A stretch of 64,000 bases of DNA from a virus (taxonomy: Duplodnaviria; Heunggongvirae; Uroviricota; Caudoviricetes), in the IMG/VR virus record IMGVR_UViG_2563366840_000011, positions 1 to 64,000 of that record. The stretch is one strand, 5' to 3'. Numbering within the stretch: position 1 is the stretch's first letter; each line of letters opens with the position of its first letter. A program made the position numbers and the translations under genes. Of the stretch, positions 2,304-58,984 are shown one piece after another. Under the pieces are notes generated by a model, which was not told the origin of the DNA, did no database searches, and saw nothing but the letters and a program-made list of their open reading frames with translations.

Positions 2304-2619
2304 TATAATAAACTTACTTTTTTATCATTTTTCCACTTTAACAACATTTTGCTCCACTTTTCCACGATCAAACAACTTGAAATCTGGTTAAAATAACACG
2401 CAACACTATTCTTCTTCCTTGAGTCCGCCCGGAACTCGAAAAACAAACCGAGTTAAAGCCATTTTTCACAAAATCGATTTTGGGTCTCACCAAAATTACG
2501 GGGTTGCATACGCATTCGTTTATTTTCGAACGTGTACATACAAATATGCACAAAAATAATCAAAATTATTTTCTGAGATGCATTATGATATGAACACCAA
2601 TTTCGTATAGAGTCTCACT

Positions 2620-26460: not shown

Positions 26461-26640
26461 GGAAAGGACCCGCAAAATGATAATAATTATCATCTGCATG
26501 TCACAACGTGCATCTACGCCATCAAACCACGTCAAATAATCAATTATGACGCAGATATCGTATTAATTGATCTGCATCAACTTAACGTAAAAACAACTTC
26601 AGACAATACAAATCAGCGACACTGAATACGGGACAACCTC

Positions 26641-26874
26641 ATGTCAACGAAGAACAGAACCCGCAGAACAACAACCCGCAACATCCGCTTTCCTAACCAA
26701 ATGATTGAACAAATTAACATCGCTCTTGAGCAAAAAGGGTCCGGGAATTTCTCAGCCTGGGTCATTGAAGCCTGCCGCCGGAGACTGTGCTCAGAAAAAA
26801 GAGTTTCTTCTGAAGCAAACAAAGAAAAGAGTGACATTACTGAATTGCTCAGAAAACAGGTCAGACCAGATTGA
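26641..26874 (+). CDS. Small ribbon-helix-helix-like DNA-binding protein (YlcI/DUF3950-like)
   Basis: 77-aa ORF; basic N-terminus followed by RHH-like IRFPNQMIEQINIALEQKG motif; cos-proximal position as for ylcI in DLP12. Confidence 0.45.
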   Translation: MSTKNRTRRTTTRNIRFPNQMIEQINIALEQKGSGNFSAWVIEACRRRLCSEKRVSSEANKEKSDITELLRKQVRPD

Positions 26875-26916
26875 AGCAATTTAGATAATCGTGCAGACTA
26901 CGCCCCCTCATATCAC

Positions 26917-27342
26917 ATGGAAGGTTTATCTATGGATCAGGTAGTCATTTTTAAACAAATATTTGATAAAGTTCGAAACGATTTAAACTATCAATGGTTT
27001 TATTCTGAGCTAAAACGTCACAATGTCTCACATTACATTTACTATTTAGCCACAGAGAATGTTCATATTGTATTAAAAAATGATAATACAGTGTTATTAA
27101 AGGGCCTAAAAAACATTGTGTCTGTCAAATTTTCAAAGGATAGGCATCTTATAGAAACGACCTCTAATAAGCTGAAATCCAGAGAGATCACATTTCAGGA
27201 ATACAGAAGAAACCTTGCTAAAGCAGGAGTTTTTCGGTGGGTTACAAATATCCACGAACAAAAAAGATATTACTATACCTTTGATAATTCATTACTATTT
27301 ACTGAAAGCATCCAGAAAACTACACAGATCTTACCACGCTAA
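26917..27342 (+). CDS. YdfO/YbcV-like protein (DUF1398)
   Basis: 141-aa AT-rich ORF in the position of ydfO in Qin; family assignment from memory, start uncertain. Confidence 0.45.
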
Positions 27343-27493
27343 ACCATAACGTCCGGCTTCTCTCACTCCTGAGCCGGACTGCATTGGTTTAATAAAAACC
27401 ATCAACAATTGTGATTTAGATATTCGGAACCATTCAAATATAACAAAACCCCGTAAAAACGAGGTTTATGGATAAATTTTATTATTGAATACA

Positions 27494-27667
27494 TCAGATT
27501 AAATTAATCTTGACATCATAGCTTTCAAGACCCGTCATTTTTTCCCGTGCGGTAAACTGAATACTGGTAACTTCTTTCCCGGTCTTTTTCTTAAGTTCAA
27601 TAATTTTTTTTGTTATATATTCAGAAATATCTGCTTCTGCTTTTGTTTTTAAGTTTTCAATATTCAT
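27494..27667 (-). CDS. gnsB: GnsB-like small protein (57 aa)
   Basis: Hand translation of the minus strand gives MNIENLKTKAEADISEYITKKIIELKKKTGKEVTSIQFTAREKMTGLESYDVKINLI; not in the ORF track because it is under 60 aa. Confidence 0.65.
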   Translation of the reverse strand: MNIENLKTKAEADISEYITKKIIELKKKTGKEVTSIQFTAREKMTGLESYDVKINLI

Positions 27668-27838
27668 CATTTCCTCTTTTAGTCTGTTATGACTTTCCAG
27701 TTACACAGTAAGTCGATTATATGGTGCAAACGTGTAAAAGATAAGATGAAACATCGCAATAATCAACATACGATAGTCTAAATTTTACACAAACAGACAA
27801 AGAAAATTTTCCTGAATTATCAATACAATAGCATCAAA

Positions 27839-28069
27839 TCAACTCAAGAGCCTTATTGCTGCTTCCAGAATTTCTTCTGAAGTAACATGTCGATCCGCGG
27901 CTACATAAATGACTTTATGATCTCCGGTCAGAGATGGAAACCCTGCGGCCATTACAGTAAGGTGTGTTTTTTCGCCATTTGGATATTCACGCATGATGGT
28001 GTTAACTCCAGTCATCGCTGGCACTACCACTGCAGGTTCAGAGTTAAAAAAAACTATGATTTTTTTCAT
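27839..28069 (-). CDS. Hypothetical protein (about 76 aa from MKKIIVFF...)
   Basis: ORF between gnsB and cspI; start chosen at internal ATG; no confident family. Confidence 0.3.
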   Translation of the reverse strand: MKKIIVFFNSEPAVVVPAMTGVNTIMREYPNGEKTHLTVMAAGFPSLTGDHKVIYVAADRHVTSEEILEAAIRLLS

Positions 28070-28340
28070 GATGTTACCGTAGTATGTGAGTATCCATCGA
28101 ATAGATACCAAGCAAAAAAGCTCCCGAAGGAGCCTTCATTTTCACTTTTTTAAATCCAACGACAGACGGCTGGCATTTAAGTATTGTGAAATATTATCAA
28201 ATGTAATCATCATTGATTTACAAAAGATACATTTTGCCCCGAAAGGATTCATGTCAGAAACATCAAAAGATGATGTTCTATACTGGGAACCATGACAACA
28301 CGGGCATCTAAAGTGAATATGGTTTGTAATATTGTCTACC

Positions 28341-28553
28341 TCAAAGCGCCACTACATGAACAGCGGCAGGACCTTTAGGTCCGTTCTCAATACCAAATTC
28401 AACTTCCTGATTCTCAGTTAATGTTTTGAAATCGTTGCTCTGAATTGCTGAGAAATGGACAAACACATCTTTGCTGCCATCTTTCGGCGTGATGAAACCA
28501 AAACCTTTTTCAGGGTTAAACCATTTCACTAAACCAGTCATTTTGTTAGACAT
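28341..28553 (-). CDS. cspI: Cold shock protein (CspA family)
   Basis: 70-aa ORF with RNP motifs KGFGFI and VFVHF; position as cspI in Qin. Confidence 0.85.
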
Positions 28554-28916
28554 AATTATTACCTTTTGAAGAAATTAGCCCTTGGGCAGAATGGTCCGAA
28601 AAAAAATATCAGAGAGAAAAACCAACAAGGAAATCTCAAGAGGTACAAATAATAAAATTATAACAATGACTGCTTCAGATAAATTTGTAACAAACCAGAA
28701 CACCATTAACGCATGATTAACCACCCATAGCAAGGATTACTTTTGTAAAGAAAAACACAGCAATGAAAGAATAGCTTTATTTATTAATAATAACGTGTCA
28801 TTCTGATTAAGACCTTTTATCTTACCCTTAAGATTTCAGGAATTTTGGCTCATGGAAGAGTCCTTTTTATTTAAATTTTACATTCCGCGATGTAAATGTT
28901 CCGATTTAATATTACC

Positions 28917-29940
<1,024 letters not shown>

Positions 29941-30256: not shown

Positions 30257-30472
30257 TTACTCTCCTCTCGCAGCCTTACGCCTGTCTTCTTTAATCTTGA
30301 AATAAAGATTTGTCAGATACGTCAGCAGGCCAAAAACCAGGCTACCCAGCACACCGATTGCAGCCCACTGTGACGGAGTTACTTTATCGAGTAACTGCAA
30401 TGCCCAGAAACCAGCATTACCCGCCGATGTGCCATAGGCAACACCTGTTGTTAACTTATCCATTGATTTCAT
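30257..30472 (-). CDS. essQ: Holin, S21-type pinholin (dual-start motif MKSMDK)
   Basis: Matches remembered P21 S sequence (…[11 protein letters not shown]…[20 protein letters not shown]); two TM segments. Confidence 0.8.
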
Positions 30473-30691
30473 ATCCTCACCCCGATGTACACGGATGGTG
30501 CAATATGTTTGAAAAGATCGGAGTCTACGGGGTAGTTTTGACAGCACACGTTGTTCTCAACGGCGCTAAAAAAACATACACATTAAAAATGTGGGTAATT
30601 ATTTTGAAAGAAAGTCATATATAAAATAATAATACGAGAAATGTTTTCATATTTAGTGTACTGTATACGGCCATTTATACAGGAAAAGCCT

Positions 30692-30862
30692 ATGTCAGAA
30701 CGTAAAAACTCAAAATCACGCCGTAATTATCTCGTTAAATGTTCCTGCCCAAACTGCACCCAAGAGTCAGAACACAGTTTTTCAAGAGTACAAAAAGGTG
30801 CCCTTTTGATCTGCCCTCATTGCAACAAAGTATTCCAGACAAATCTTAAAGCTGTAGCCTGA
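30692..30862 (+). CDS. Small zinc-ribbon protein (two CxxC pairs), hypothetical
   Basis: 56-aa ORF from ATG with AGGAAAAG SD; CPNC...CPHC motif; opposite strand to the lysis genes. Confidence 0.4.
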   Translation: MSERKNSKSRRNYLVKCSCPNCTQESEHSFSRVQKGALLICPHCNKVFQTNLKAVA

Positions 30863-30916
30863 TTGATTTTATTAGTAACAAGTATTTTTTATATTTTAAT
30901 AATATATTTAAAGCAG

Positions 30917-30943
30917 ATAATAAAAAACCCGCCTGAGCGGGTT
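30917..30943 (-). terminator. Rho-independent terminator downstream of cspB
   Basis: aacccgc-ctga-gcgggtt hairpin with T-rich tract on the minus strand. Confidence 0.5.
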
Positions 30944-31225
30944 TGAGATTGTGGTGCTTTTTGTGGGAGTCATCCACTTACGCACTTTGTTTTGCCATGC
31001 CAGCAGTTAGCTTCTGCTGTAAAACTATTCATGCAGCAAACCTGCACTTCACCACAATGGTTAGCATACTTTTCCTGATTAAGATTTTGCCAAATATGCT
31101 AGCCATTGTTTCATGTATTGGACCTCCTTACTTTTTATTAAAGAGATCCAATATTCACTACTCTGTCCGTATCTCTACTCAGGCATCAGCCTTCTTCGTT
31201 ATCGTATACAGACGAGCGATGAATT

Positions 31226-31441
31226 TTAATCAGTAATGATGACATTTGCTGCTGCAGGACCTTTAGCACCACTCTCTATAGAGAAGGTAACCTTTTGACC
31301 TTCAAATAAGGTTCGATAATTATCATTCTGAATCGCAGAAAAATGCACAAACACATCTTTACTACCATCAACAGGAGAAATAAAGCCGAAACCTTTATCA
31401 GCGTTAAACCATTTTACTAAACCAGTCATTTTATTTGACAT
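31226..31441 (-). CDS. cspB: Cold shock protein CspB
   Basis: 71-aa CspA-family ORF; position and sequence as Qin cspB. Confidence 0.85.
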
Positions 31442-31741
31442 TCTACATTCCTTAACTTGAGCCTTTCGGCATAAATGGTTTGCATAACAGAAACGACTTC
31501 GTACTTAATTGGAGAGACTCAAAGAAGGAATAAGTGAATAACACCTGAAATGAGAACTGCTTTAGTAAACTACTTCGTATATCGTCTGTTCTTCAAACCG
31601 ACGCAATCATTAACGCATAGTTGAACATATGAAGCAATGTTTATTTTAGACATCCAGCCATCTTCAACCCCATCAAAAAACTATAGCTTTCTTCAGGAAC
31701 GTGTGTATAGTGCGCCAAGTTATCAGTATTAAGGAATTTTT

Positions 31742-31954
31742 TTGTCCCGTAAAATGACAGGAATTGTCAAAACCTTTGACGGCAAAAGCGGCAAGGGTCT
31801 TATCACCCCATCCGATGGTCGTATCGATGTCCAGCTTCATGTTTCAGCGCTCAATCTCCGCGATGCAGAAGAAATTACCACCGGATTACGCGTGGAATTT
31901 TGCCGGATAAATGGTCTGCGTGGCCCTTCAGCTGCCAATGTTTACCTTTCATGA
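31742..31954 (+). CDS. cspF: Cold shock protein-like CspF
   Basis: 70-aa divergent CspA-family ORF, divergently oriented to cspB. Confidence 0.8.
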
Positions 31955-36999: not shown

Positions 37000-38450
37000 A
37001 AACGCGACTTAAGAATCTACCCTATGAATGGATATGCACTCAACCGAATCGATCTTGGTTTCAATCTTTTTTATCGGGATCAGGCTTCTTTTTAGGTAAC
37101 TTCGGGGGCTTAACTTGCTGATGACTTTGCGTTCGGCGCGTAAGCCAGGGATGGTCAGCTTTAGGTTTAACATAGTATTTTGAGCGTAAATCAATACGGG
37201 CATTATCCACTCGTTCATGGACACTCTTTTCATCATCCAGTGGTATAGGCTCCGGGCCATCAACATACTTTTCCCAGCCCAGCGCTTTCCCGTCATACAG
37301 AACGTTAATTTCACCGTCAAAGTTCTCGCATACAGTAACAACCGAATGCCTAAGTCGATATCCCCGGCCCTCACTGCGTACCTGAAACGCACTGCTTTTG
37401 TACTGGAAAGTGAGATTTTTAGACAGAACGCGCTTCGCCTGTAGGCTGAAGATATAACCCAGTTCCTCTTCAGAATGGTGCACATCAAGATGAGCATTAT
37501 CAGTAGTACGAGGCGACGTAGCGAACCGGTTGTTATAGGCTTCAATAAAGGTCGGCAACCATGCATTTGCTGTTTCAATATCACTGATATTCTGAAGCCG
37601 CATTTCTTTGACCAGCCTGTCCTGTAGTGTCTGATTGGCGCGCTCTACCCGCCCTTTTGCCTGCGGGCTGTTGGCATGGATTGGCTCGATGCCCAGTGTC
37701 TTTATCGCACGAGTGAACTGGGTCAGCTCACCTTCCCGCTCTGGGTTATTTACCCTGAATATACTGTGTCTATCAGAGTAGAGAGCGAGCGGTACGCCAT
37801 GATCATTAAGGTAACCCCGGAGGGTTTCCATGTAAGCCCGGGTTGTTTCAGCAGGCACAAAACGCAACGCCATCAACGCACTGGTGGCATCATCAATGAA
37901 AACGATCAGTGTACATCTGGGGCCTCGATTTTCAAACCAGTCATGAGGTGAGCCATCAATCTGGATCAGTTCACCGTAAGATGGTCGTCGCATGCGGCGT
38001 TGATATATACGGGCAATTTTACGACGGCGTTCACGCCATAACCCCTCTTCTATCATCCACTTTCTGAGAGTTTCAACGGATAAAGATAAACCGTGTATCT
38101 CGCGCAATTTTTCGCACGCAAACGTAGGTCCAAAATCAGCGTAACGGCCTTTGAGGAGTGAAATTACTGTTGCTCTGAATTCAGTAGAAAAGGAATTATT
38201 AGGACGCTTTCCACGTCGGTGGGAAACCAGACCAGAAGGCCCTTCATTTCTATACCGTTGCACCAGACGTTTAACCTGCCGAATAGAAATGCCAATGCGT
38301 GCCGCAGCTTGTTCCTGAATAATCTGAAGTCGATGGAGTTCCTTATGACTCATCGTAACAGTCTCTTTGATCATGAAAAATCCCCCAGAGAATTGTCTGG
38401 GGACATTTTAGAATGGTTCAAAGGGGACATTACAGCTTGGTGTTAACAAT
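37000..38450 (-). mobile_element. Insertion sequence carrying the 437-aa transposase; ends not resolved
   Basis: Single large transposase ORF between flxA terminator and an AT-rich small-ORF region; terminal inverted repeats could not be located by eye. Confidence 0.4.
37061..38374 (-). CDS. DDE transposase with N-terminal HTH and integrase-core (rve-like) domain; IS family not assigned (IS481/ISNCY-like guess)
   Basis: 437-aa ORF with HTH at N-terminus and D...D...E integrase-core pattern; basic Lys/Pro-rich C-terminus. Confidence 0.7.
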   Translation of the reverse strand: MIKETVTMSHKELHRLQIIQEQAAARIGISIRQVKRLVQRYRNEGPSGLVSHRRGKRPNNSFSTEFRATVISLLKGRYADFGPTFACEKLREIHGLSLSVETLRKWMIEEGLWRERRRKIARIYQRRMRRPSYGELIQIDGSPHDWFENRGPRCTLIVFIDDATSALMALRFVPAETTRAYMETLRGYLNDHGVPLALYSDRHSIFRVNNPEREGELTQFTRAIKTLGIEPIHANSPQAKGRVERANQTLQDRLVKEMRLQNISDIETANAWLPTFIEAYNNRFATSPRTTDNAHLDVHHSEEELGYIFSLQAKRVLSKNLTFQYKSSAFQVRSEGRGYRLRHSVVTVCENFDGEINVLYDGKALGWEKYVDGPEPIPLDDEKSVHERVDNARIDLRSKYYVKPKADHPWLTRRTQSHQQVKPPKLPKKKPDPDKKD

Positions 38451-38708
38451 AGCCTGCTTCTCCGTGCCTTTCGGCACGTAAGAGGCTAACCTACATGTGT
38501 CTAGCATGAAATTGGCCTCAGATTAATGTTAAGCGTCTTGCAGGACGCGTAATGTTAACTGGGGCTTTTCTCTATCTGCCGTTGGTGTCCATGCCCGAGG
38601 CAGATAGCCTCAAGCACCCGCAGTCATTCTACTTAACTAAGATTTCCCCGCAAACCGTTTTTGTCCAGCACAGTAAATATCCAACTAAACCAATGGAGTT
38701 CGCTGTAT

Positions 38709-38888
38709 TTACCGCCAGTATTCAATGCACATGACCGCCATGAACACCCCTAAAAAAAGGGCATTTATATATCCAAATATTAATATCAAAACATCAACTT
38801 TTTCCATATACCTTGCTGTGAAGATGATGGGCATACATGATGCGAACAACCAGAACGCAACAAACAAAAACTGCAATGCGTTTTTCAT
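38709..38888 (-). CDS. Small hydrophobic two-TM protein (59 aa), hypothetical
   Basis: ATG preceded by GGAGG SD; two hydrophobic helices; AT-rich. Confidence 0.4.
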   Translation of the reverse strand: MKNALQFLFVAFWLFASCMPIIFTARYMEKVDVLILIFGYINALFLGVFMAVMCIEYWR

Positions 38889-39139
38889 TATTCCTCCTAC
38901 AATCAATGTGCAATTACATTTAAACACACCTCAATTTGGCCGGACATATAAATATCTAAACCAGAAAAAATCACTTACATAGCGTTACAAACTCTTTAGT
39001 CTAAAGGTTCATCGTAAAACATTCCCCATACTTATCAGTCCGTTCCGCGCCAGGTAGCTCATTGCCTTATCTGGCAACCTGTAATCAGGTTTCCGCTTTT
39101 TCAGTTGGCTGGTCGTTTAACCGACATAGTTAATCCATT

Positions 39140-39790
39140 AATCTAGTTGCCGGATGTTGGTGGATTTTCGCGTTTTAGTTGTTCATAAAAGTGCACAGCT
39201 TTAACCAGTTCTTCTGATGTAACTGGGACTGGTGAGGCAGTGAATAAGGCCTGAATTTGATAGTTCGGCCTGTCGTTACAATCCTCTTTTTTCGGTACAT
39301 ATTTCCAGTCACCAGACCACTACTTCCCCTGAAAGTCCGTAACGCCTTTTTTCACGTAGCGATATCGCCATGCCACTGGTTTTGCTTGCCCCGCCGTTTC
39401 ATGCCCTTCCTGATAATTAATCTCGCTCATTCATCGCCCCACTCATCACAATATGCTTCGACCGGAGTTTTTCCCGCTTCATAGTCATCACGCTAGGATT
39501 CGACATCAGCAGCACTTCCACCGCGTAACTCACCATAGTCCATTAATAGTTCATCCCGCTCTTCAAAACTGATGTTATATTTAGCTGAACAAAAATCAGC
39601 CACTTTGTTCTTCCTCATCGTCTTTTATTTCGTGGTATGAGTAATTGCAGTAGTTAAAGAAAATTTCTTATGCTCCGTCATGAATTTCCTCAGGTGTTGC
39701 GTCATCGTCCACTTCGAATACATCCTCAAAATCTCCACCAGCTATTCCCGTTTCAATAATAATTTTGAACTTTCGCATTTCACTACCGCC
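39140..39790 (-). pseudogene. Run of short, frame-broken ORFs (36-41 aa pieces), probable degraded prophage gene(s)
   Basis: Hand translation gives consecutive short ORFs in different frames (MRKFKIIIETG..., MRKNKVADF..., MSEINYQEGHETAGQAKPVAWRYRYV...) with no ORF of 60 aa or more. Confidence 0.3.
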
Positions 39791-40193
39791 CTTTCGGGCG
39801 GCCTCCTGATGTTCTGAGGGTGCAGAAATCCATCCGGTTAAGGATTAAATTTTATTTACAGAACTGAATTTAATTATTCAGATATACGTATCTGTAGCCT
39901 TACGAATCTACTCACTGGATGCCTCTTTCATAAAAATAATCCAGTGGGTTTTATCGTTTTTTCCCCTGTTCGTTGACAGATAACAGGTTTTCTGTCTGTC
40001 AGTGCCAGAATCTGGCTTACCGGTATTTGCGTTTCATTCCATTAAAAAATCAGAACGCCGTGCGGCCTCAACACCCGAAAGGCTTCTTTAAATCTCTGTC
40101 GCGAATCATCACGCCAGGCATCTTTATTCAGCCGTCCATATTTCTTTCCCATCCAGGCGTTATCACCAACACTCTCAAGGTAATGACTCCAAC

Positions 40194-40697
40194 TTATTGA
40201 TAGTGTTTTATGTTCAGATAATGCCCGATGACTTTGTCATGCAGCTCCACCGATTTTGAGAACGACAGCGACTTCCGTCCCAGCCGTGCCAGGTGCTGCC
40301 TCAGATTCAGGTTATGCCGCTCAATTCGCTGCGTATATCGCTTGCTGATTACGTGCAGCCTTCCCTTCAGGCGGGATTCATACAGCGGCCAGCCATCCGT
40401 CATCCATATCACCACGTCAAAGGGTGACAGCAGGCTCATAAGACGCCCCAGCGTCGCCATAGTGCGTTCACCGAATATGTGCGCAACAACCGTCTTCCGG
40501 AGCCTGTCATACGCGTAAAACAGCCAGCGCTGGCGCGATTTAGCCCCGACATAGCCCCACTGTTCGTCCATTTCCGCGCAGACGATGACGTCACTGCCCG
40601 GCTGTATGCGCGAGGTTACCGACTGCGGCCTGAGTTTTTTAAATGGCGGAAAATCGTGTTGAGGCCAACGCCCATAATGCGGGCGGTTGCCCGGCAT
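40194..40697 (-). CDS. insB: IS1 InsB (expressed as InsAB' by frameshift)
   Basis: 167-aa ORF matching IS1 InsB. Confidence 0.9.
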
Positions 40698-40891
40698 CCA
40701 ACGCCATTCATGGCCATATCAATGATTTTCTGGTGCGTACCGGGTTGAGAAGCGGTGTAAGTGAACTGCAGTTGCCATGTTTTACGGCAGTGAAAGCAGA
40801 GATAGCGCTGATGTCCGGCGGTGCTTTTGCCGTTACGCACCACCCCGTCAGTAGCTGAACAGGAGGGACAGCTGATAGAAACAGAAGCCAC
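40616..40891 (-). CDS. insA: IS1 InsA
   Basis: 91-aa ORF matching IS1 InsA. Confidence 0.9.
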
Positions 40892-40946
40892 TGGAGCACC
40901 TCAAAAACACCATCATACACTAAATCAGTAAGTTGGCAGCATCACC

Positions 40947-41297
40947 CCTTTTTCAGTGAAAATCTCGCCAAGCGGTGTCTGGCTGTTATTAATCGCCCAG
41001 TCAGCCCCGCTCTCTTTCGCTTTTTCCAGTCGTTCATCAATGCGATCGGCAACAATCACATTTTTAACGTTATAGACGCCTTTTAATACCTGAACGATCG
41101 TCAGGCCGATTGGACCGGCACCATAAACCAGAACGGTATCATTTTCAGTCGGTTGACCATGTCCGGTTACGTTAGCCGCAATGGTAAAAGGTTCGATCAT
41201 TACCGCATATTGATCGGCCACTGCTTCAGGAATTTTCCACGCATTTTTTGCCGGAACCACGGCATATTCACTGAAACCACCGTCAGCTGTGGGGAGG
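40947..41297 (-). pseudogene. Internal fragment of a zinc-type medium-chain dehydrogenase gene (rspB-like by position), truncated at its 3' end by IS1 and at its 5' end by the Mu-like prophage
   Basis: Translation ...DGGFSEYAVVPAKNAWKIPEAVADQYAVMIEPFTIAANV...VLVYGAGPIGL... shows the MDR substrate-domain and Rossmann GxGxxG pattern; the frame reads straight into the IS1 terminus. Confidence 0.55.
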
Positions 41298-41550: not shown

Positions 41551-42120
41551 TTAACCGGCCTTCTTGTCGTGACTTGTTAGGCCCGCTTCGGCTGTCTGTT
41601 GATCAGCCTCAGATGACCCTTTTTTCAGTTGCTCATTCAGCCTAAGCAAACGCTCTTTGTCTTCTAAGGGGAGATTCATCAGACTCATATCAACATCCTT
41701 AACGCTAGCCACAAGACCTACCATGCTGCGAGCGCCTTCCTTAAAGCAGTACTCTAATATTTTTTTCTGATCATCTGGTTCTAGACTGTCGAAAATCATG
41801 TTCCACGCGCATTTAGCAGGGTCTGCATATCCTCTGTGCGCTTCATCAACAGCGATGATGCGATTCAAATTAGAATCAGCCTCATGCCCAAATGCCAGCC
41901 AGTCCAACGTGACATGCTCTTTCGCTGCGATGGCTTGCATGGCAATGAAGGATGGTTCTGTTCCCCTGCTAAGGTAGTTGTTCAATGTCGAGAATGATAA
42001 CCCCCAATCTTTTGCCGCAGCCCTTACACTGCGAGTGCCTACGAGAGCTTTTAGTCTCTTGATAAAGTTTTCTTTTCTCTCTTCATCAAAAGCAAATTCG
42101 TTTGCTTTACGGTATCCCAT
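41551..42120 (-). CDS. Mu-like repressor (Repc-like)
   Basis: 189-aa ORF divergent from ner at the left end, HTH-like segment; Mu gene order. Confidence 0.55.
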   Translation of the reverse strand: MGYRKANEFAFDEERKENFIKRLKALVGTRSVRAAAKDWGLSFSTLNNYLSRGTEPSFIAMQAIAAKEHVTLDWLAFGHEADSNLNRIIAVDEAHRGYADPAKCAWNMIFDSLEPDDQKKILEYCFKEGARSMVGLVASVKDVDMSLMNLPLEDKERLLRLNEQLKKGSSEADQQTAEAGLTSHDKKAG

Positions 42121-42303: not shown

Positions 42304-42531
42304 ATGGAAAGAAATGAAGTACAGCGTGACTGGCATCGCATTGATATTGTCGCCGAGCTGCACAAGCGTGGCGTCACTATGCGCGGCCTTTCCGCCAGCG
42401 CGGGACTAAAACCCGACACGCTGAAAAATGCGCTGGCACGCTCTTATCCAAAAGGAGAGCGCATTATTGCAAATGCTCTCAATTTAGAACCCGCCAGTAT
42501 CTGGCCAAGCCGTTACAACAAGGACCTGTGA
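42304..42531 (+). CDS. ner: Ner-like DNA-binding protein
   Basis: 75-aa ORF resembling Mu Ner (…RDWHR.D…L.NAL.R..PKGE.IIANAL...IWPSRY). Confidence 0.8.
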   Translation: MERNEVQRDWHRIDIVAELHKRGVTMRGLSASAGLKPDTLKNALARSYPKGERIIANALNLEPASIWPSRYNKDL

Positions 42532-42532
42532 C

Positions 42533-44590
42533 ATGTTCGTGACTGTTAACGAATTAGTTGGCGTCCCTGGATTGCCAACAACACAACAAGGACTGCGATA
42601 CAGTCTTAAAAAAAGTGCAGGCAACTCCCCTGAACTGGTTCGCAAGCGTGCTGGCAGCAAAGCATTCGAGTACCACATCGACTGCCTTCCTGAACAGGCG
42701 CGTGAAATAGTCAAAGCCCGGCATTATCGGGAGGTGTTGAAACAGTCTGATTGCTCACCCGCTCCAGCGGCACCAAAGCGGGAAGTCACCACGACCCGTG
42801 ATGAGCTGGCGTTATTACGGCAGTGCCCGGTATTGCTGGAGCGTGAAGTTTCCGACCTTACCGAACGCCAGAAACAGATCGCCGATGCGCGTGCATTATT
42901 AGCCGCAGAGGTTGAGCGCCTTCGGGATATCGGTATGTCTCGCGCATCGGCGGTTGAGTTCATCGCCAAAGAGTCACGCAAGGGTTCACTCCCGGAGAAC
43001 ATCCAGGCTGCGGCTGATATTGCCAATGCCCGTAAAGGCTCCAGCCGCCGTGGCGTGGGGGAAAGAACACTCCAGGAATGGCTGTCTGTTTACCTTTCAA
43101 CCCGCCCTGGTATCGAACGCCTTGCTTTACTGGCCCCAGGCCATCTTAAAGCGCGTAAGCCTGAACAGATTAAGTGGCTCCCTGATTTTCTTGCTCACTG
43201 GCGGAAACTCTCAGGCCCTTCCCTGGTTGATGCGTGGCGTTCATTCAAGACTGAATGGCAGGCTATCTATGCGGGACAGCCAGCGATGCTCGCAGTCTGC
43301 CCGTCTTATGATGCCGTTCGCCGTGCGATGGAAAAGTTGCCCAAACGTGAACGCGCTCGCGGCCGTATCAGCGGTTCAGCGGCTCTGGCCTTTGAGGTTT
43401 ACCAGAAACGTGACTGGTCACAGATGCCTGTAAATGGTTGCTGGATTGCGGATGGTAAATCGCTGGATATGAAAGTTGCTCATCCGGTCCATGGCCGCCC
43501 ATTCACGCCCGAACTGACGCTGGTGATTGATGGACGAACCCGCTTCCTGGTGGGCTGGAGCCTGGCGCTCTCGGAGAACGTCATCGCCGTAGCGGATGCC
43601 TATCGCTACGCCATGAAATTCCACGGGAAACCTCTTTTTGTTTATTCGGATAACGGTGGCGGCGAAACGAACAAAACGCTGGATGCTGATATCACCGGTA
43701 TTTTCACCCGCATGGGGATTGATCACCCGACCAGTATTCCTGGCCGACCTCAGTCTCGCGGGATTATCGAACGCCTGAACGCCGTAATACCGAGAGCGAT
43801 CGCCAACAAATTTGATACTTACAACGGATTCGGGGCCGACCGTGAGCATGTCCGGATGACCGGTCGCGCCATCCAGTCAGCGATTAAGGCTCAGGAGAAT
43901 GGCCGCGAGCTCACGAGCGTACAGCGTAATGCGCTGCGTAAACTGCCGTCATGGCAGATGCTGCTGGATACCATTGCCGAGGAAGTCGACAAATACAACA
44001 ACCTGCATGAGCACAGCGAGTTACCGAAGCGTAATGGTGTTCATATGACGCCAGCACAGTACCGTCGCGAGGTCCTGGCCACTGAGGGTGACGAGATTGA
44101 ATATCTGACGGATATCGAACTTCGTGAAGCCTTCATGCCGGAAATGTGCCGTACGGCCCAGAGAGGCTGGATTGACCTGATGAACAACCAGTATTTCAGC
44201 GCTGACCTGATACAGGTCGATGGTGAAGAGGTTCGTGTTGCCTATGACATTCACGACCCTGCCGCCGTCATCGTTCGCCGTATGGACGGTACTTATGTCT
44301 GCACCGCCATCTGGAACGGCAACAAGCGTGCCGCGCTGCCAACCAGCATGATGGATATCGCCGTTGAGAAACGCCGCCAACGTCGTCTGAAGCGCATTGA
44401 CGAACAGCGAGAAGAGATTGAAGCAGAGGCGCGAGGACTGCTGCCAGAAAGCGATATGTACCCTGATTTCGGCGCATTAATACCATCAGATGCCGAGCGT
44501 ATTAATGATGACCGGGAACACGTGTTCCTGTTCGAGTCAGAGCGAGAAGAGTGGCTGAAAAGTCAGGGCAATAAAAAAGCGGCCTTCTGA
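42533..44590 (+). CDS. A: Mu-type DDE transposase A
   Basis: 685-aa ORF immediately after ner; MuA-like size and position. Confidence 0.85.
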   Translation: MFVTVNELVGVPGLPTTQQGLRYSLKKSAGNSPELVRKRAGSKAFEYHIDCLPEQAREIVKARHYREVLKQSDCSPAPAAPKREVTTTRDELALLRQCPVLLEREVSDLTERQKQIADARALLAAEVERLRDIGMSRASAVEFIAKESRKGSLPENIQAAADIANARKGSSRRGVGERTLQEWLSVYLSTRPGIERLALLAPGHLKARKPEQIKWLPDFLAHWRKLSGPSLVDAWRSFKTEWQAIYAGQPAMLAVCPSYDAVRRAMEKLPKRERARGRISGSAALAFEVYQKRDWSQMPVNGCWIADGKSLDMKVAHPVHGRPFTPELTLVIDGRTRFLVGWSLALSENVIAVADAYRYAMKFHGKPLFVYSDNGGGETNKTLDADITGIFTRMGIDHPTSIPGRPQSRGIIERLNAVIPRAIANKFDTYNGFGADREHVRMTGRAIQSAIKAQENGRELTSVQRNALRKLPSWQMLLDTIAEEVDKYNNLHEHSELPKRNGVHMTPAQYRREVLATEGDEIEYLTDIELREAFMPEMCRTAQRGWIDLMNNQYFSADLIQVDGEEVRVAYDIHDPAAVIVRRMDGTYVCTAIWNGNKRAALPTSMMDIAVEKRRQRRLKRIDEQREEIEAEARGLLPESDMYPDFGALIPSDAERINDDREHVFLFESEREEWLKSQGNKKAAF

Positions 44591-44635: not shown

Positions 44636-45529
44636 ATGTCAGCTAAAAATGAACTTGTCGAACTGATGAAAGCAAAAGGTCTTAACCAGACGCAGGTCGC
44701 CCGCGCTATTGGTAAGAGCTCTGCCGTAATCAGCCAGTACCTGAATAATAAATACGACGGCGATATTGCATCGCTGGAAAACGATATTCGTAGCTTTATC
44801 GATCGTCAGCATGAAAAAGAGCGCTCGGCACGTATCAGCGTCAAATTTGTTGATACCCCAACAACGCGCAAAGCCGTTGATGTTATACGCATGGCGCACG
44901 TCGAAGGTGATATCAACGTGCTTTACGGCGAAGCCGGTCTGGGCAAGACGATGATTTGCAAAGCCTACGTCTCTAAATACCGGGATGCGTTGCTGATTGA
45001 GGCCGACCCTGGCTACACCGCACGCGTAATCCTGGAAGAACTCTGCAACCTGCTGGGGCTCAGTACCCGCGGCAATATGCATGAACTTAGCGAAGCCTGC
45101 ATCAACAAGCTGCGCGACTCCGGGCGCGTGCTGATTATTGATGAAGCTGAGAACCTCCCTCTGCGTGCGCTGGAATCTATCCGCCGCATTCATGACAAAA
45201 CGGGGATCGGCATCGTCCTGGTTGGTATGCCTCGCCTGATTCTGAACCTCAAGGGCAAACGCGGTGAGCTCGTACAGCTCTATAGCCGTGTCGGTTTCGC
45301 CCTCAACCTCGGGCATAGCCTGCCGGGTGCTGATATTGACGTCATCGCCAGCAGCGTTCTCCCGGATGGCCTGAATGAAGACCTGAGCAAAGCGCTGTTC
45401 AACGCATCAAAAGGTAATGCCCGCCGACTGTTCAAGCTACTGCGCGGTGCAGTTCGTACCAGTGCAATGAATGATGTTCCGGTCAGCGGTCATATCGTCA
45501 ATCAGATAGCCGAAATGCTGATCCATTAA
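44636..45529 (+). CDS. B: Mu B-like transposition ATPase (AAA+)
   Basis: 297-aa ORF with N-terminal HTH, Walker A GEAGLGKT and Walker B LIIDEAE. Confidence 0.8.
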   Translation: MSAKNELVELMKAKGLNQTQVARAIGKSSAVISQYLNNKYDGDIASLENDIRSFIDRQHEKERSARISVKFVDTPTTRKAVDVIRMAHVEGDINVLYGEAGLGKTMICKAYVSKYRDALLIEADPGYTARVILEELCNLLGLSTRGNMHELSEACINKLRDSGRVLIIDEAENLPLRALESIRRIHDKTGIGIVLVGMPRLILNLKGKRGELVQLYSRVGFALNLGHSLPGADIDVIASSVLPDGLNEDLSKALFNASKGNARRLFKLLRGAVRTSAMNDVPVSGHIVNQIAEMLIH

Positions 45530-49175: not shown

Positions 49176-49411
49176 CCAGCGCTTCCCCGTTGACTCACAG
49201 TTCCATTATTACCTGATACCTGGTGTATCGGAGCGGGAAACTGTAATAACCCGCCCGGCAGCCTGGCATATGCGCAATGGTCGTCTGGTTGTCAGGGTCG
49301 AAGGGAAAATCGGTGGTATATCAGTCAGCAAAATGAAACCTTGAAAGTAAGTCATTACAGCAGGCACTTCATAAAGTGCCTGCGATAATGACAACCAACA
49401 GGAGAAATATT

Positions 49412-49888
49412 ATGTCCACGCCAGCAAAACGAGGCCTTATAGGGGCAATTAAAGCCGGTCAGGCATATCTGGGGTGGGATGAGGTAACCTACCGTAGTGT
49501 TCTGTCTCGCTTATGCAACGGTAAAACATCATCCACTAAATGCACCCTCGACGAGCTGCAGGCTGTCAGGGAATATATGCATGACAAGGGTTTTCCTCGC
49601 TACTCAGCAAAACACGGTCGACGCCCAAAGGTTGCCAATACGCGCGAGTCAATTCTTTCTAAAATTAACGCATTACTTGCAGATGCAAAACGTCCGTGGA
49701 ATTATGCCGAGAAAATGTGCGATCATATGTTTCACGTCAAATACATCGAGTGGTTGACGACTGAACAGTTAACCAAACTCATGCAGGCTCTCAGCATTGA
49801 TGCGAGTCGGCGAAAAAAGCGGGAGCGTAATAATGAATCTGGAACAGGTAACGGAGCTGCTGCCATCAGCAGTGATTCAAATAGCTGA
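49412..49888 (+). CDS. gemA: GemA-like regulatory protein (Mu gp16 family)
   Basis: 158 aa from ATG with AGGAG SD; position immediately before mor. Confidence 0.5.
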   Translation: MSTPAKRGLIGAIKAGQAYLGWDEVTYRSVLSRLCNGKTSSTKCTLDELQAVREYMHDKGFPRYSAKHGRRPKVANTRESILSKINALLADAKRPWNYAEKMCDHMFHVKYIEWLTTEQLTKLMQALSIDASRRKKRERNNESGTGNGAAAISSDSNS

Positions 49889-50267
49889 CCTGATAGGCTT
49901 CCCGGCGACCGAGCAGCTTCTTTCTGCTTTTGGTGGCACCACGTTCCCGATAGGTAAAGGCCTCCGCGCTATGGGGGCCAGCCGCGCAGCCCTCCTGCGC
50001 AATACTATCGGCGATGATAAAACCCAATTACTCATCAAGAATTTCGGCGGAGAAGTTCTCTATTTACCCCGCTGTGATCGTGCCCTTCGTGAATTACGCA
50101 ACCGCCGCTTTCTCGCCGAGTTCGCCGAAGTGCGTGAACAAGGTTCATCCTCTCTTATGGCCATGACCTTTCTTTGCCCTAAGTATGGATTTAGTGATCG
50201 CTTTGCGTGGGAACTTCTTGCACAGCAGAAAAACAAAGGTTGTAACAGTCAAGGAAAATTATTCTAA
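49833..50267 (+). CDS. mor: Mor/C-family middle/late transcription activator
   Basis: 144 aa; overlaps the gemA end as mor does in Mu; C-terminal HTH region. Confidence 0.6.
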   Translation: MNLEQVTELLPSAVIQIADLIGFPATEQLLSAFGGTTFPIGKGLRAMGASRAALLRNTIGDDKTQLLIKNFGGEVLYLPRCDRALRELRNRRFLAEFAEVREQGSSSLMAMTFLCPKYGFSDRFAWELLAQQKNKGCNSQGKLF

Positions 50268-50773
50268 TGCGCAATACAATGAGATATATGGCATTTTTCT
50301 TGGTGGTATTTAGTACTACTGTAGTGGCAAAAACAGTACCCAATACAAAAGCAGTTGAAACTTATAAAAATCAACTTGAGGAAACTAAGAGAATATTTAA
50401 TGAAACGCAGAGCACTTTAATGGGTGCAACTGCTGTTTTTGATATGTACAAGAGTCTGGGATATCTTACACCTGAAGTTGTTGCAGTGAGTCGTCATTTC
50501 CTCCTCCTTGATGAGGATGCGAAAAAATTGTATGGGGAGAATCTTCTTTTAAACCCTACACCTTTTAGCTCTTGTGCTACGTTACCAGCAGCAGCTTACT
50601 CATATTGGATGGCAAGGCTATCTTCATTAAAAACTGATAATGTTAAGGCTGTGAATGCGCAGGGTGAATCATACATAAAACAGGGTAAGGAATGTAAATT
50701 TGCAATTAACAACCCACCTCCCTCGCATATTGAAGAAAGTGATTATGTAGAGATAATTGATGTTACTCAATAA
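50267..50773 (+). CDS. AT-rich ORF encoding a 168-aa predicted secreted protein (N-terminal signal peptide), unknown function
   Basis: Start overlaps mor stop (TAATG) with AAGGAAAA SD; hydrophobic N-terminus MRYMAFFLVVFSTTVVA; visibly lower GC than neighbours. Confidence 0.5.
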   Translation: MRNTMRYMAFFLVVFSTTVVAKTVPNTKAVETYKNQLEETKRIFNETQSTLMGATAVFDMYKSLGYLTPEVVAVSRHFLLLDEDAKKLYGENLLLNPTPFSSCATLPAAAYSYWMARLSSLKTDNVKAVNAQGESYIKQGKECKFAINNPPPSHIEESDYVEIIDVTQ

Positions 50774-50851
50774 ACCACTGAACCCCTTCACCTGATTATT
50801 CACCTAACCTGATGAAATACTGACGCCATCCCTTTTTAACCGGATGGCGTT

Positions 50852-51496
50852 ATGCTTTTAACACTCCCACAATTTCAGCGAGCCGCAGGCCTTTCGCCAG
50901 TAATGGCGCAACGCTGGTTTGAACCATTCAGTAAAGCCACCGCTGAATTCGAAATTAATACACCCGCCCGACTTGCCGCCTTTATTGCTCAAACCGGCCA
51001 TGAGAGCGCGGGTTTCAGTCGGCTCAGTGAAAATCTCTATTACTCAGATGCTGAGCGCGTGGCGCGTATTTTCCGCAGCGACTTCGATCTCAATAAGAAT
51101 CGTATTATCGATCCGAGCGAGGTTGAATTTGCCCGCCGCTATACCCGTAACCCTGAAAAAATGGCCAATTATGTTTACGCAAATCAGGGGGGTAACGGTA
51201 ATGAAGCATCAGGCGATGGCTGGCGCTTTCGCGGACGTGGCCTGATTCAGATTACCCTGCGCAATAATTACCGCCTTTGCGGTAAGGCGCTGGGCCTCGA
51301 TCTCATCGCGGATCCCGATTTGTTACTGGAGTATCTCAACGCAGCCCGCAGCGCTGCCTGGTACTGGAAGGCAAATGGCTGCAACGAGCTGGCTGACAAA
51401 GGCAATTTTCTGGCCGTAACCCGGCGTATCAACCCTCCGGCTGAAGGTCAGGCTGACCGCGTGGCGCGGCTGAATGTCGCTAAGGCGGCGCTATGA
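50852..51496 (+). CDS. Endolysin, glycoside hydrolase family 19 (chitinase-like lysozyme)
   Basis: 214-aa ORF with GH19-type motifs (AAFIAQTGHESAGF, RGRGLIQITLRNNY). Confidence 0.75.
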   Translation: MLLTLPQFQRAAGLSPVMAQRWFEPFSKATAEFEINTPARLAAFIAQTGHESAGFSRLSENLYYSDAERVARIFRSDFDLNKNRIIDPSEVEFARRYTRNPEKMANYVYANQGGNGNEASGDGWRFRGRGLIQITLRNNYRLCGKALGLDLIADPDLLLEYLNAARSAAWYWKANGCNELADKGNFLAVTRRINPPAEGQADRVARLNVAKAAL

Positions 51497-58617: not shown

Positions 58618-58984
58618 GGGCAAATTCGTCCTGTAACGCGCTGTGACGCGTTCAGTCTGATTGTGCTAGAGTGATTCGCCAAAGAGGTGTTCAGACGTTT
58701 TTAAAAGCGGTTTAAAAAGGCCTGGGCTCATAAATGCATTACGGGAGCGGGCAACTGGACACATTCAAAGCTTTCCTTGATTATTTCACCCCGCAGCAGT
58801 GGGTCTTCATTGGCATCTTAGGGGGCTGGTTATAAAGGTTGCTGAGTGGTTCACTGACCGATACTTTGCCCGCAGGCGTCAGTCTGCTAAACCCGATAAG
58901 CCGACAACCAAAGCGATCCTCAGCGATAATCCACTGAACCTCTTCATCTGAACCTCCCCGCAGTGGTGCCGTATCGTCGGCACC

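What the first reader, a model, noticed from the sequence alone, without database searches (positions are those of the whole stretch)
50267..50773. AT-rich signal-peptide ORF translationally coupled to mor in the Mu-like prophage
A 168-aa ORF with an N-terminal signal peptide and visibly lower GC than the surrounding prophage DNA sits directly after mor, with its start overlapping the mor stop (TAATG). In Mu this position holds the late activator C. The composition break and export signal suggest a horizontally acquired cargo gene, co-expressed from the middle operon, encoding a secreted or periplasmic protein of unknown function. I do not recognise the protein.
Basis: partly seen in the sequence, partly recalled or inferred. 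Interest (0 to 1): 0.65.

Follow-up and report, generated by a model that had tools for sequence, protein, structure and literature searches.

The report
Swappable exported cargo gene after mor
The AT-rich gene after mor in this Mu-like prophage is real and encodes an exported helical protein of unknown function; related phages carry other, unrelated envelope-protein genes at the same spot, which is an ordinary kind of phage accessory slot but a tidy place to look for new phage-exclusion proteins.

Summary
ORF 50267-50773 encodes 168 aa, and its ATG overlaps the mor stop (TAATG). Its GC is 0.371 (GC3 0.278) against 0.54 for the prophage (z = -4.4), the lowest stretch in the element. It has a classic Sec signal peptide with a predicted VVA|K cleavage site.

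The protein matches only PHROG 29261 (function unknown). Pfam, NCBIfam, PADLOC and PDB sequence searches gave no significant match. AlphaFold gives a confident four-helix bundle with two invariant cysteines and a disordered acidic tail. It has no significant structural neighbour.

In 76 related loci the mor-to-endolysin gap always holds exactly one small AT-rich gene. These genes fall into five unrelated families, all with a signal peptide or transmembrane segments. Phages whose flanking mor and endolysin proteins are 90-98% identical carry different families. The gene is therefore swappable cargo, not core.

The slot ends 1-17 nt (usually 2-5) before a conserved promoter-like element. That element recurs upstream of the Mu I-protease homologue with identical geometry. 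This makes the cargo the last gene of the mor transcription unit.

The function is inferred, not shown. My best guess is an envelope-acting phage-conflict factor such as superinfection exclusion. One observation remains unexplained: two unrelated cargo families share a selected C-terminal L-x-I-I-D-V tail.

Verdict: a new member of a known kind, of moderate interest.

The parts
49833..50267 (+). mor: the only Mor/C-family activator gene found in the window. Its last 15-20 codons fall inside the segment that differs between relatives.
   Evidence: PF08765 E 1.6e-8 and phrog_836 E 2.5e-39. tblastn of Mor against the window finds no second copy. Homology to L021 and L001 stops at 50205 and 50221 respectively.
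50265..50269 (+). TAATG stop/start overlap between mor and the cargo ORF.
   Evidence: Read directly from the sequence. The same overlap occurs in the window-like subfamily and in some family-2 loci. Other loci have a 2-29 nt gap containing AGGA.
50267..50329 (+). Predicted Sec (SPase I) signal peptide, residues 1-21, with cleavage VVA|KT.
   Evidence: Heuristic n/h/c-region analysis. The cleavage context is conserved in the closer homologues. AlphaFold pLDDT is low for residues 1-22. SignalP was not run.
50330..50734 (+). Mature domain: a four-helix bundle (H27-64, H69-89, H101-123, H126-148). Cys103 (50573-75) and Cys143 (50693-95) are invariant. A short N/C strand pair forms between residues 23-25 and 154-156.
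   Evidence: AlphaFold2 with 26 sequences gives pLDDT 88.4, with the core above 95. Invariant columns are N26, C103 and C143. phrog_29261 E 1.2e-41.
50735..50773 (+). Disordered acidic C-terminal tail ESDYVEIIDVTQ plus the stop codon. It carries the L/V-x-I-I-D-V motif that is also present on the unrelated family-2 cargo proteins.
   Evidence: pLDDT is about 49. The tail table shows synonymous codon variation with I-I-D kept in 19 of 20 variants. Family 1 and family 2 profiles align only over their signal peptides.
50206..50774 (.). Variable cassette, as defined by comparison with the closest relatives that carry other cargo.
   Evidence: blastn against L021 (family 4 cargo; flanks 95-98% identical): homology ends at 50205 and resumes at 50775. 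Against L001 (family 2): it ends at 50221 and resumes at 50753, so the tail is shared.
50775..50796 (+). Conserved element CCACTGAACCCCTTCACCTGAT with an imperfect inverted repeat CTGAA/TTCAC. I infer that this is the Mor-binding site of the late lys promoter.
   Evidence: It is conserved at the right edge of the slot in 70 of the 76 loci scanned; four of the six without it are truncated. An exact second match lies at 58932-58951. The repeat centre (50784.5) falls at -43.5 if +1 is 50828, the position reported for Mor at Mu Pm (PMC4390567 abstract).
50816..50821 (+). -10-like hexamer AATACT with no -35 hexamer upstream.
   Evidence: A (G/A)A(T/C)ACT hexamer sits 41-42 nt from the element start in every locus where one was found (all but L027). 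Mu late promoters likewise have -10 hexamers but lack -35 hexamers (PMC2582627 abstract).
50821..50852 (+). 11-bp hairpin covering the lys Shine-Dalgarno sequence and the A of the ATG. I infer that it terminates or translationally blocks read-through from the cargo gene, and that it is absent from late-promoter transcripts.
   Evidence: RNAfold on 50774-50870 gives an MFE of -19.4 kcal/mol, z = -5.5, with 0 of 200 shuffles as stable. A hairpin occupies the same place with different stem sequences in about 40 distinct loci; three are followed by a T-run.
50852..51496 (+). GH19 endolysin, the first late gene and the right-hand conserved flank of the slot.
   Evidence: PF00182 E 9e-13 and phrog_181 endolysin E 4.7e-82.
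58932..58977 (+). Second copy of the promoter-like element (CACTGAACCTCTTCATCTGA), with a -10-like TATCGT at the same 31.5-bp distance. It lies directly upstream of the Mu-like I protease/scaffold gene.
   Evidence: The gene at 58985-60100 matches PF10123 Mu-like_Pro with E 2.4e-92. This parallels Mu's P_I.

Best explanation
The ORF is a genuine, non-core accessory gene. It fills a dedicated one-gene cassette slot at the 3' end of the gemA-mor transcription unit of a Mu-like prophage.

Shown: the slot is bounded on the left by the end of mor and on the right by a conserved promoter-like element in front of the endolysin gene. Related phages fill it with one of at least five unrelated families of small AT-rich genes. 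Every one of these encodes a protein with a signal peptide or membrane segments.

Inferred: the gene has no promoter of its own and is transcribed and translated together with mor. Its product is exported by Sec and cleaved after Ala21. It folds in the periplasm into a disulfide-stapled four-helix bundle with a flexible acidic tail. Transcription then ends, or at least lys translation is blocked, at a hairpin that overlaps the start of the late lys transcript.

Inferred by analogy only: the protein acts at the cell envelope in phage-phage or phage-host conflict. The most likely role is superinfection exclusion or protection of the envelope while the phage develops, comparable to the T4 early periplasmic protein Spackle.

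My confidence is about 0.85 for the architecture and the cargo status, and about 0.35 for the exclusion function. The overall figure below blends the two.
For: Real gene. The exact protein is indexed in 77 blocks of the assembly collection (24 contigs read). Homologues go down to about 23% identity with invariant N26, C103 and C143. dN/dS is 0.13-0.55 among close copies, though on few differences. The AlphaFold model is confident (pLDDT 88).

Cargo status. In 76 loci the mor-lys gap of 376-640 bp always holds one ORF with GC 0.34-0.45. The five families are: X, 'GYQxQRNLA', 'DGYKGVKFG', a multi-TM family, and a Zn-ribbon+TM family. Phages whose Mor protein is 90-91% and whose endolysin is 97-98% identical to the window's carry family 2 or family 4 instead. 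The family 1 and family 2 profiles are unrelated beyond the signal peptide.

Envelope targeting. All families have a signal peptide or TM segments.

Operon position. The cargo start lies -3 to +29 nt from the mor stop, apart from one mis-called start (L029), with AGGA directly after the stop. No sigma-70-like promoter was found on the + strand in 49300-50267. The cargo stop lies 1-17 nt (mostly 2-5) before the conserved element; in one subfamily it overlaps the element by 6 nt.

Promoter reading. The element, the -10 hexamer and their spacing are duplicated upstream of the I-protease gene. The geometry matches Mu Mor/C promoters. The hairpin is conserved through changes in stem sequence.

Support for a conflict role. 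One distant locus has an expanded slot that includes a putative AbiC abortive-infection gene. In Mu itself the post-mor membrane proteins gp19 and gp20 are dispensable and do not affect lysis (PMC9239132). Low-GC variable regions at fixed positions are documented in Pseudomonas Mu-like phages (PMC4378225). T4 Spackle is likewise an early periplasmic protein that mediates exclusion (PMC7677548 abstract).
Against: There is no experimental or homology-based evidence for any function. Pfam, NCBIfam, PADLOC and PDB sequence profiles gave no significant match, and Foldseek against PDB and BFVD gave nothing below E 1e-3.

If the gene is expressed only from the repressed early operon, it cannot protect a lysogen. 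This weakens a classical prophage-exclusion role and leaves only exclusion during lytic growth.

Some longer four-cysteine homologues lie in apparently chromosomal contexts, next to V-type ATPase genes or a Cys/Met PLP enzyme. The fold may therefore have a cellular role unrelated to phage conflict.

The promoter and terminator assignments rest on sequence geometry alone. The signal peptide was not scored with a trained predictor.
Confidence: 0.5

Rival explanations
1. Anti-defence or counter-exclusion factor. The exported protein neutralises an envelope-located host or rival-prophage barrier early in lytic development, as anti-CRISPR and other early anti-defence genes do in the cytoplasm.
For: The gene is expressed with the early regulator mor. 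Unrelated families turn over at one locus among near-identical phages, which is typical of arms-race genes. Pseudomonas Mu-like phages keep anti-CRISPR genes in a comparable low-GC variable region (PMC4378225).
Against: No similarity to any known anti-defence protein was found. The PADLOC library tested covers defence systems, not anti-defence proteins. No periplasmic target is known. This reading cannot be separated from the exclusion hypothesis with sequence data.
Confidence: 0.15
2. Lysis-timing accessory. The periplasmic protein modulates the neighbouring lysis cassette, for example as an antiholin-like sensor or an endolysin or peptidoglycan protector, to prevent premature lysis.
For: The gene lies immediately upstream of the GH19 endolysin, DUF2644 and spanin-like genes. 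The product would reach the periplasm before the endolysin is made.
Against: Phages with 97-98% identical endolysins carry unrelated cargo (families 2 and 4 against family 1), so there is no co-variation with a lysis partner. The cargo lies outside the late lys promoter. In Mu the post-mor membrane proteins gp19 and gp20 can be inactivated without effect on lysis (PMC9239132). No similarity to known lysozyme inhibitors or antiholins was found.
Confidence: 0.12
3. Classical lysogenic-conversion moron. [quoted passage not shown]
For: The composition is AT-rich and moron-like and the product is exported. Mu has a semi-early promoter annotated upstream of gemA, so a gemA-mor-cargo transcript in lysogens is conceivable.
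Against: The scan found no promoter-like site between gemA and the cargo. The start is fused to the mor stop. Constitutive expression would imply constitutive Mor, which should switch on late genes. No similarity to known conversion factors was found.
Confidence: 0.12
4. Spurious or decaying ORF in AT-rich spacer DNA.
For: One relative (L047) carries a frameshifted copy.
Against: The protein is conserved across 30 representative clusters with invariant cysteines. The fold prediction is confident. dN/dS is below 1. The ORF fits exactly between mor and the promoter element in all loci.
Confidence: 0.01

Closest known systems
Regions of genomic plasticity / morons in Mu-like and lambdoid phages (Cazares et al. 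2014, PMC4378225; moron concept of Juhala/Hendrix as summarised there)
   Same: A single accessory ORF lies at a fixed position between conserved genes. Its GC is well below the phage average. Its content differs between otherwise near-identical phages. Its function is mostly unknown.
   Different: No own promoter was detected, and the gene is fused to the upstream mor gene. The slot was never empty in 76 loci. Every alternative occupant is envelope-targeted. The host range is enterobacterial (E. coli, Enterobacter, Klebsiella, Cedecea) rather than Pseudomonas.
Phage Mu middle-operon genes gp18-gp19-gp20-C (between mor and lys)
   Same: Same genomic interval, after mor and before the lys late promoter. 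Mu gp19 and gp20 are also small non-essential membrane proteins of unknown function.
   Different: There is no sequence similarity. Here the interval holds one gene, and there is no second Mor/C-type activator and no Mor-dependent middle promoter between mor and the cargo.
T4 Spackle (gp61.3), an early periplasmic superinfection-exclusion protein (PMC7677548, PMC7650644)
   Same: Both are small exported proteins. Spackle is made early in lytic development; early expression of the cargo is inferred. It is a functional analogy for what such a protein could do.
   Different: No detectable sequence or fold relationship: Spackle is not among the Foldseek hits. No tail lysozyme target is known for Mu-like phages of this group. 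The analogy is untested.
PHROG 29261
   Same: The window protein matches the family HMM end to end (E 1.2e-41, positions 1-159 of 161).
   Different: The PHROG has no annotated function, so membership names the protein but does not explain it.

Membership tests
PHROG 29261 (unknown function) | Significant full-length match to the family HMM | tested here: met
   E 1.2e-41, residues 5-168 against profile positions 1-159 of 161.
Sec/SPase I secreted protein | Positively charged n-region, 10-15 residue hydrophobic h-region, small residues at -3/-1, no lipobox | tested here: met
   R2 and R6; AFFLVVFSTTVV; V-V-A|K; no Cys at +1. The pattern is conserved in the closer homologues. SignalP and experiment are not available.
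Sec/SPase I secreted protein | Demonstrated export and cleavage | not testable with these tools
   Needs PhoA fusion, cell fractionation or N-terminal sequencing.
Moron (classical definition) | Nucleotide composition deviating from flanking genes | tested here: met
   GC 0.371 against 0.50-0.54 in the flanks; z = -4.4.
Moron (classical definition) | Own promoter upstream and terminator downstream | tested here: not met
   No sigma-70-like site upstream on the + strand, and the start overlaps the mor stop. A terminator-like hairpin is present downstream. Only half of the criterion is met.
Moron (classical definition) | Inserted between genes that are adjacent in related phages | tested here: not met
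   None of 76 related loci has an empty slot. The content is replaced, not present/absent.
Accessory gene in a region of genomic plasticity of Mu-like phages | Variable gene content at a fixed position between conserved core genes | tested here: met
   Five unrelated families lie between conserved mor and GH19 endolysin genes. Boundaries are sharp at 50205/50221 and 50753/50775.
Mor/C transcription activators (what Mu has in this interval) | PF08765 domain | tested here: not met
   No Pfam hit for the ORF. tblastn of Mor finds only mor itself.
Holin / antiholin / spanin | Transmembrane domain(s) or lipobox; co-variation with the lysis cassette | tested here: not met
   No TM segment beyond the signal peptide and no lipobox. 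The cargo swaps while the endolysin stays 97-98% identical.
Known superinfection-exclusion or defence proteins (PADLOC models; T4 Sp, T5 Llp and similar by fold) | Sequence or structural similarity | tested here: not met
   PADLOC returned 0 families. Foldseek against PDB and BFVD gave no hit with E < 1e-3.
Known superinfection-exclusion or defence proteins | Exclusion phenotype | not testable with these tools
   Requires plating and adsorption assays.
Mor/C-dependent promoter (for the element at 50775-50828) | -10 hexamer without -35; dyad centred at -43.5; repeated before late operons | tested here: met
   AATACT at 50816-21. The inverted-repeat centre at 50784.5 equals -43.5 for +1 = 50828. 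A second copy with identical spacing lies before the I-protease gene. Reference geometry comes from the PMC4390567 and PMC2582627 abstracts. Activation by Mor was not tested.

The most novel reading that the evidence does not exclude
The C-terminal tail (acidic linker followed by L-x-I-I-D-V) may be a portable docking peptide. It is attached to two structurally unrelated periplasmic domains, the four-helix bundle of family 1 and the Sel1-like 'GYQxQRNLA' domain of family 2. It is kept at the protein level despite synonymous change at nearly every codon. I propose that it tethers interchangeable effector domains to one common envelope partner by beta-strand addition. From memory, it resembles TonB boxes such as D-T-I-T-V-T-A or E-I-M-A-V-D-I. 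If so, these cassettes would form a modular family of periplasmic exclusion or takeover proteins that plug into an energised envelope machine.
Probability: 0.12. Interest if true: 0.7.

Novelty: new member of a known kind. Interest (0 to 1): 0.4.

Why it matters
Hot spots where near-identical phages swap unrelated genes have repeatedly yielded anti-CRISPRs, defence systems and exclusion proteins. This slot is unusually clean. It holds one gene with exact boundaries, at least five orphan families, and every occupant is sent to the envelope and made together with the early regulator. That gives a short, testable list of candidate envelope-acting conflict proteins in prophages of E. coli, Enterobacter and Klebsiella. 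It also gives a defined position at which to look for more. The side observations would help annotate the regulation of this poorly studied group of Mu-like prophages. These are the single Mor-type activator, the promoter element repeated before lys and I, and the hairpin that should silence lys on read-through transcripts. None of this overturns current understanding.

Tried and rejected
Searches on the ORF that gave no significant match:
- Pfam found nothing. NCBIfam gave only sub-threshold noise (E 0.007, score 16 against a cutoff of 60). PADLOC found nothing.
- A PDB sequence-profile search with 26 sequences gave only coiled-coil noise at E > 0.04.
- Foldseek with two models against PDB and one against BFVD returned only generic helical bundles, with best E 0.015-0.1.

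Searches on the other slot families: Pfam and PADLOC found nothing. Family 2 has a weak Sel1-repeat signal against PDB (E 0.16).

Collection scans:
- GTDB species-representative genomes, scanned with the close-homologue alignment, gave no confirmed locus.
- The wider alignment was too divergent to build search patterns.

Ideas tested and dropped:
- That the shared IIDVT tail reflects a DNA-level constraint, with the activator site overlapping the 3' end. Rejected because the conserved DNA starts after the stop codon, families 3, 4 and 6 lack the tail, and the tail codons vary synonymously.
- That families 1 and 2 are distant homologues. Rejected because hhalign aligns only the signal peptides.
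- A second Mor/C gene in the window. None was found.
- An independent promoter for the ORF. None was found by the consensus scan.
Full report
**1. The observation**

The window holds a Mu-like prophage from about 41.4 kb onward. Its genes in order are: repressor 41551-42120 (-), ner-like 42304-42531, transposase A 42533-44590, B 44636-45529, DUF3164, DUF2786, DUF4406, GemA 49376-49888, Mor 49833-50267, the ORF in question, GH19 endolysin 50852-51496, DUF2644, DUF1804, terminase, portal, F, G, I protease and the T capsid protein.

It encodes 168 codons, and its ATG shares one base with the mor TAA, giving TAATG.

Its composition is extreme for this element. GC is 0.371 and GC3 is 0.278, against 0.50 for mor, 0.54 for the endolysin and 0.538 for the prophage. 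None of 2098 other 507-bp windows in the prophage is as low (z = -4.4).

The N-terminus has the three regions of a Sec signal peptide: R2 and R6, then AFFLVVFSTTVV, then VVA|KT. There is no lipobox and no other hydrophobic segment. I could not run a trained predictor, so this rests on the heuristic, on conservation of the cleavage context in the closer homologues, and on AlphaFold leaving residues 1-22 outside the fold.

**2. What the protein is**

It matches PHROG 29261 (function unknown) end to end, with E 1.2e-41. Pfam, NCBIfam and PADLOC gave no significant match.

The family is small. The word-indexed search found six clusters, in E. coli, Enterobacter kobei and Cedecea neteri. A full HMM scan of 1.84 billion representatives found 30. 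One deposited phage, Klebsiella phage ST405-OXA48phi1.1, carries a 42% identical copy in the same position.

With 26 sequences, AlphaFold gives a confident model (pLDDT 88, core above 95). It is an up-down four-helix bundle closed by a short N/C strand pair. Cys103 and Cys143 are invariant, consistent with a periplasmic disulfide. The acidic tail ESDYVEIIDVTQ is disordered.

**3. The slot**

I fetched 71 IMG/VR loci with the Mor protein and 9 with the ORF itself, and added E. coli FDAARGOS_1303 and the Klebsiella phage. In every locus that reaches the endolysin, the mor-lys gap of 376-640 bp is filled by exactly one small ORF with GC 0.34-0.45. In the same loci mor has GC 0.46-0.57 and lys 0.49-0.59.

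The ORFs fall into five unrelated families:

| Family | Description | Loci |
|---|---|---|
| 1 | The window's family | about 26-28 |
| 2 | Signal-peptide family with a GYQxQRNLA / CAWRK motif; weak Sel1-like signal | 19 |
| 3 | Signal-peptide family beginning VDGYKGVKFG | 14 |
| 4 | Protein with 2-3 TM segments | 12 |
| 6 | Zn-ribbon plus TM protein | 2 |

None of the four other families has a Pfam or PADLOC match. Every family has a signal peptide or membrane segments.

Cargo identity is uncoupled from the flanks. Loci whose Mor protein is 90-91% and whose endolysin is 97-98% identical to the window's carry family 2 (L001, L020) or family 4 (L021, L022). At the DNA level, homology between the window and L021 stops at 50205 and resumes at 50775. 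Against L001 it stops at 50221 and resumes at 50753. The slot was never empty.

It is, however, an old resident of this slot. Homologues at about 23-27% identity (P0022, P0031) also lie directly after mor in distant Mu-like contigs. In one of these the slot is expanded and includes a putative AbiC abortive-infection gene. Other long four-cysteine homologues lie in apparently chromosomal contexts.

**4. How it is expressed (inferred)**

In most loci the cargo ATG follows the mor stop by 2-29 nt, with AGGA placed directly after the stop codon. In the window's sublineage the ATG overlaps the stop. This leaves no room for a promoter, and the consensus scan finds none upstream on the + strand.

The cargo stop lies 1-17 nt (mostly 2-5) before a conserved element, CCACTGAACCCCTTCACCTGAT. 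In one subfamily the stop overlaps the element by 6 nt. A -10-like (G/A)A(T/C)ACT hexamer follows at a fixed 41-42 nt, with no -35 hexamer. A hairpin then ends at or on the lys ATG.

In the window the inverted repeat CTGAA/TTCAC is centred at 50784.5. This is -43.5 if transcription starts 7 nt after the hexamer, at 50828. Mor binds a dyad centred at -43.5 in Mu Pm, and Mu late promoters have -10 but no -35 hexamers (abstracts of PMC4390567 and PMC2582627).

The only other exact copy of the element in 64 kb lies at 58932-58951. It has a -10-like TATCGT at the same 31.5-bp distance and sits directly upstream of the Mu-like I protease gene. That is where Mu has its P_I promoter.

The window contains a single Mor/C gene. 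Mu, by contrast, has mor, then Pm, gp18, gp19, gp20 and C, then Plys and lys. This phage therefore most likely runs a two-step cascade in which Mor switches on the late promoters directly. The cargo gene would be the last gene of the mor transcription unit.

The hairpin spans 50821-50852. RNAfold on the surrounding region gives an MFE of -19.4 kcal/mol, z = -5.5. It buries the lys ribosome-binding site and start codon, and its left arm overlaps the -10/+1 region. Read-through RNA from the cargo gene would form the hairpin, while RNA started at the late promoter would lack most of its left arm. About 40 distinct loci keep a hairpin here with different stem sequences, and three add a T-run. All of this is geometry. 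No transcript data were available.

**5. What it probably does**

The function is not shown by any evidence here. The pattern has four parts:
- unrelated families turn over at one locus among near-identical phages;
- every product goes to the envelope;
- the gene is co-expressed with the early regulator;
- a neighbour in one locus is an Abi-type gene.

This is the signature of conflict genes. My best guess, at about 0.35, is superinfection exclusion or envelope protection during lytic development. The analogy is with T4 Spackle, an early periplasmic protein (PMC7677548).

An envelope-directed anti-defence role cannot be separated from this with sequence data. A lysis-timing role is unlikely. 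The cargo varies while the lysis genes do not, and Mu's own post-mor membrane proteins gp19 and gp20 are dispensable for lysis (PMC9239132). A classical lysogenic-conversion role is unlikely without an independent promoter.

**6. An unexplained detail**

Families 1 and 2 have unrelated mature domains; hhalign aligns only their signal peptides. Both nevertheless end in an acidic linker followed by L-x-I-I-D-V/I and one to four further residues.

The motif is not imposed by the promoter DNA. The conserved DNA begins after the stop codon, families 3, 4 and 6 lack the tail, and the codons vary synonymously (ATA/ATT/ATC, GAT/GAC, GTT/GTA/GTG) while I-I-D is kept in 19 of 20 variants. In some pairs the tail DNA is nearly identical between families, for example L043 against L068 and L040 against L052. 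The tail may therefore travel with the right flank during cassette exchange.

A short form of family 2 lacks the tail. I recall that TonB boxes have a similar alternating pattern, but I could not test this.

**7. Comparison and verdict**

Low-GC variable regions at fixed positions in Mu-like phages, and morons in general, are well described (PMC4378225). This is a new, well-delimited example in enterobacterial Mu-like prophages, occupied by orphan families.

It fails two classical moron criteria: it has no promoter of its own, and no relative has an empty site. It is best called an accessory cassette slot.

Novelty: a new member of a known kind. Interest is moderate, at 0.4. The value lies in a clean candidate list for envelope-acting phage-conflict proteins and in the shared-tail puzzle.

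Noticed in passing
window 50821-50852 (and the same position in about 40 related loci, e.g. L002, L045, L064): A stable hairpin sits between the -10-like hexamer and the endolysin ATG, covering the Shine-Dalgarno sequence and the start codon. It is conserved through different stem sequences. Its left arm overlaps the predicted transcription start, so only read-through RNA should form it.
   Followed up: partly
window 50775-50821 and 58932-58977: Two copies of a promoter-like module (CACTGAAC-N-TTCA element, 31.5 bp, -10-like hexamer) lie upstream of the endolysin gene and of the Mu-like I protease gene. The window has only one Mor/C gene, which suggests a two-step regulatory cascade rather than Mu's three-step one.
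   Followed up: partly
slot proteins of L001, L023, L040, L056, L058, L064, L068 (family 2) against the window and L002, L043, L052 (family 1): The C-terminal tail L-x-I-I-D-V/I is shared by two unrelated periplasmic protein families. The codons vary synonymously, and in some pairs the tail DNA is near-identical across families.
   Followed up: partly
window 58618-58984: A 367-bp gap lies between the G-like virion morphogenesis gene and the I protease gene. It contains only 33- and 50-aa ORFs and shows a GC dip to 0.46. I recall that this is the interval where Pseudomonas Mu-like phages carry anti-CRISPR genes.
   Followed up: no
L087 2725-5636: In a distant Mu-like contig the post-mor region is expanded to several genes: a 190-aa orphan, the 197-aa homologue of the window protein, two small ORFs and a putative AbiC abortive-infection protein (PF16872, E 3e-26).
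   Followed up: partly
L088/L089 (P0024) and L085/L086 (P0021): Longer four-cysteine homologues of the family occur outside phage context. One lies between V/A-type ATPase subunit genes. The other lies next to a Cys/Met PLP-enzyme gene and a DUF3501 gene.
   Followed up: no
L047 3454-3930: A frameshifted (pseudogenised) copy of a family-1 cargo gene. It shows that the slot content can decay.
   Followed up: no
window 37061-41260: Between the two prophages lie an IS with an rve_3 integrase core (37061-38374), an IS1 transposase (40194-40697) and a truncated zinc-dependent dehydrogenase fragment (40925-41260). The fragment lies just left of the Mu-like prophage end, so that gene may have been disrupted by the insertion.
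   Followed up: no
window 1181-2800, 26581-29150, 30371-31850, 38671-39250: Other low-GC islands (down to 0.30) lie in or beside the lambdoid prophage that fills the first ~36 kb. One contains a DUF1398 gene (26917-27342). Others flank the P21-type holin, lysozyme and DUF2514 lysis cassette.
   Followed up: no
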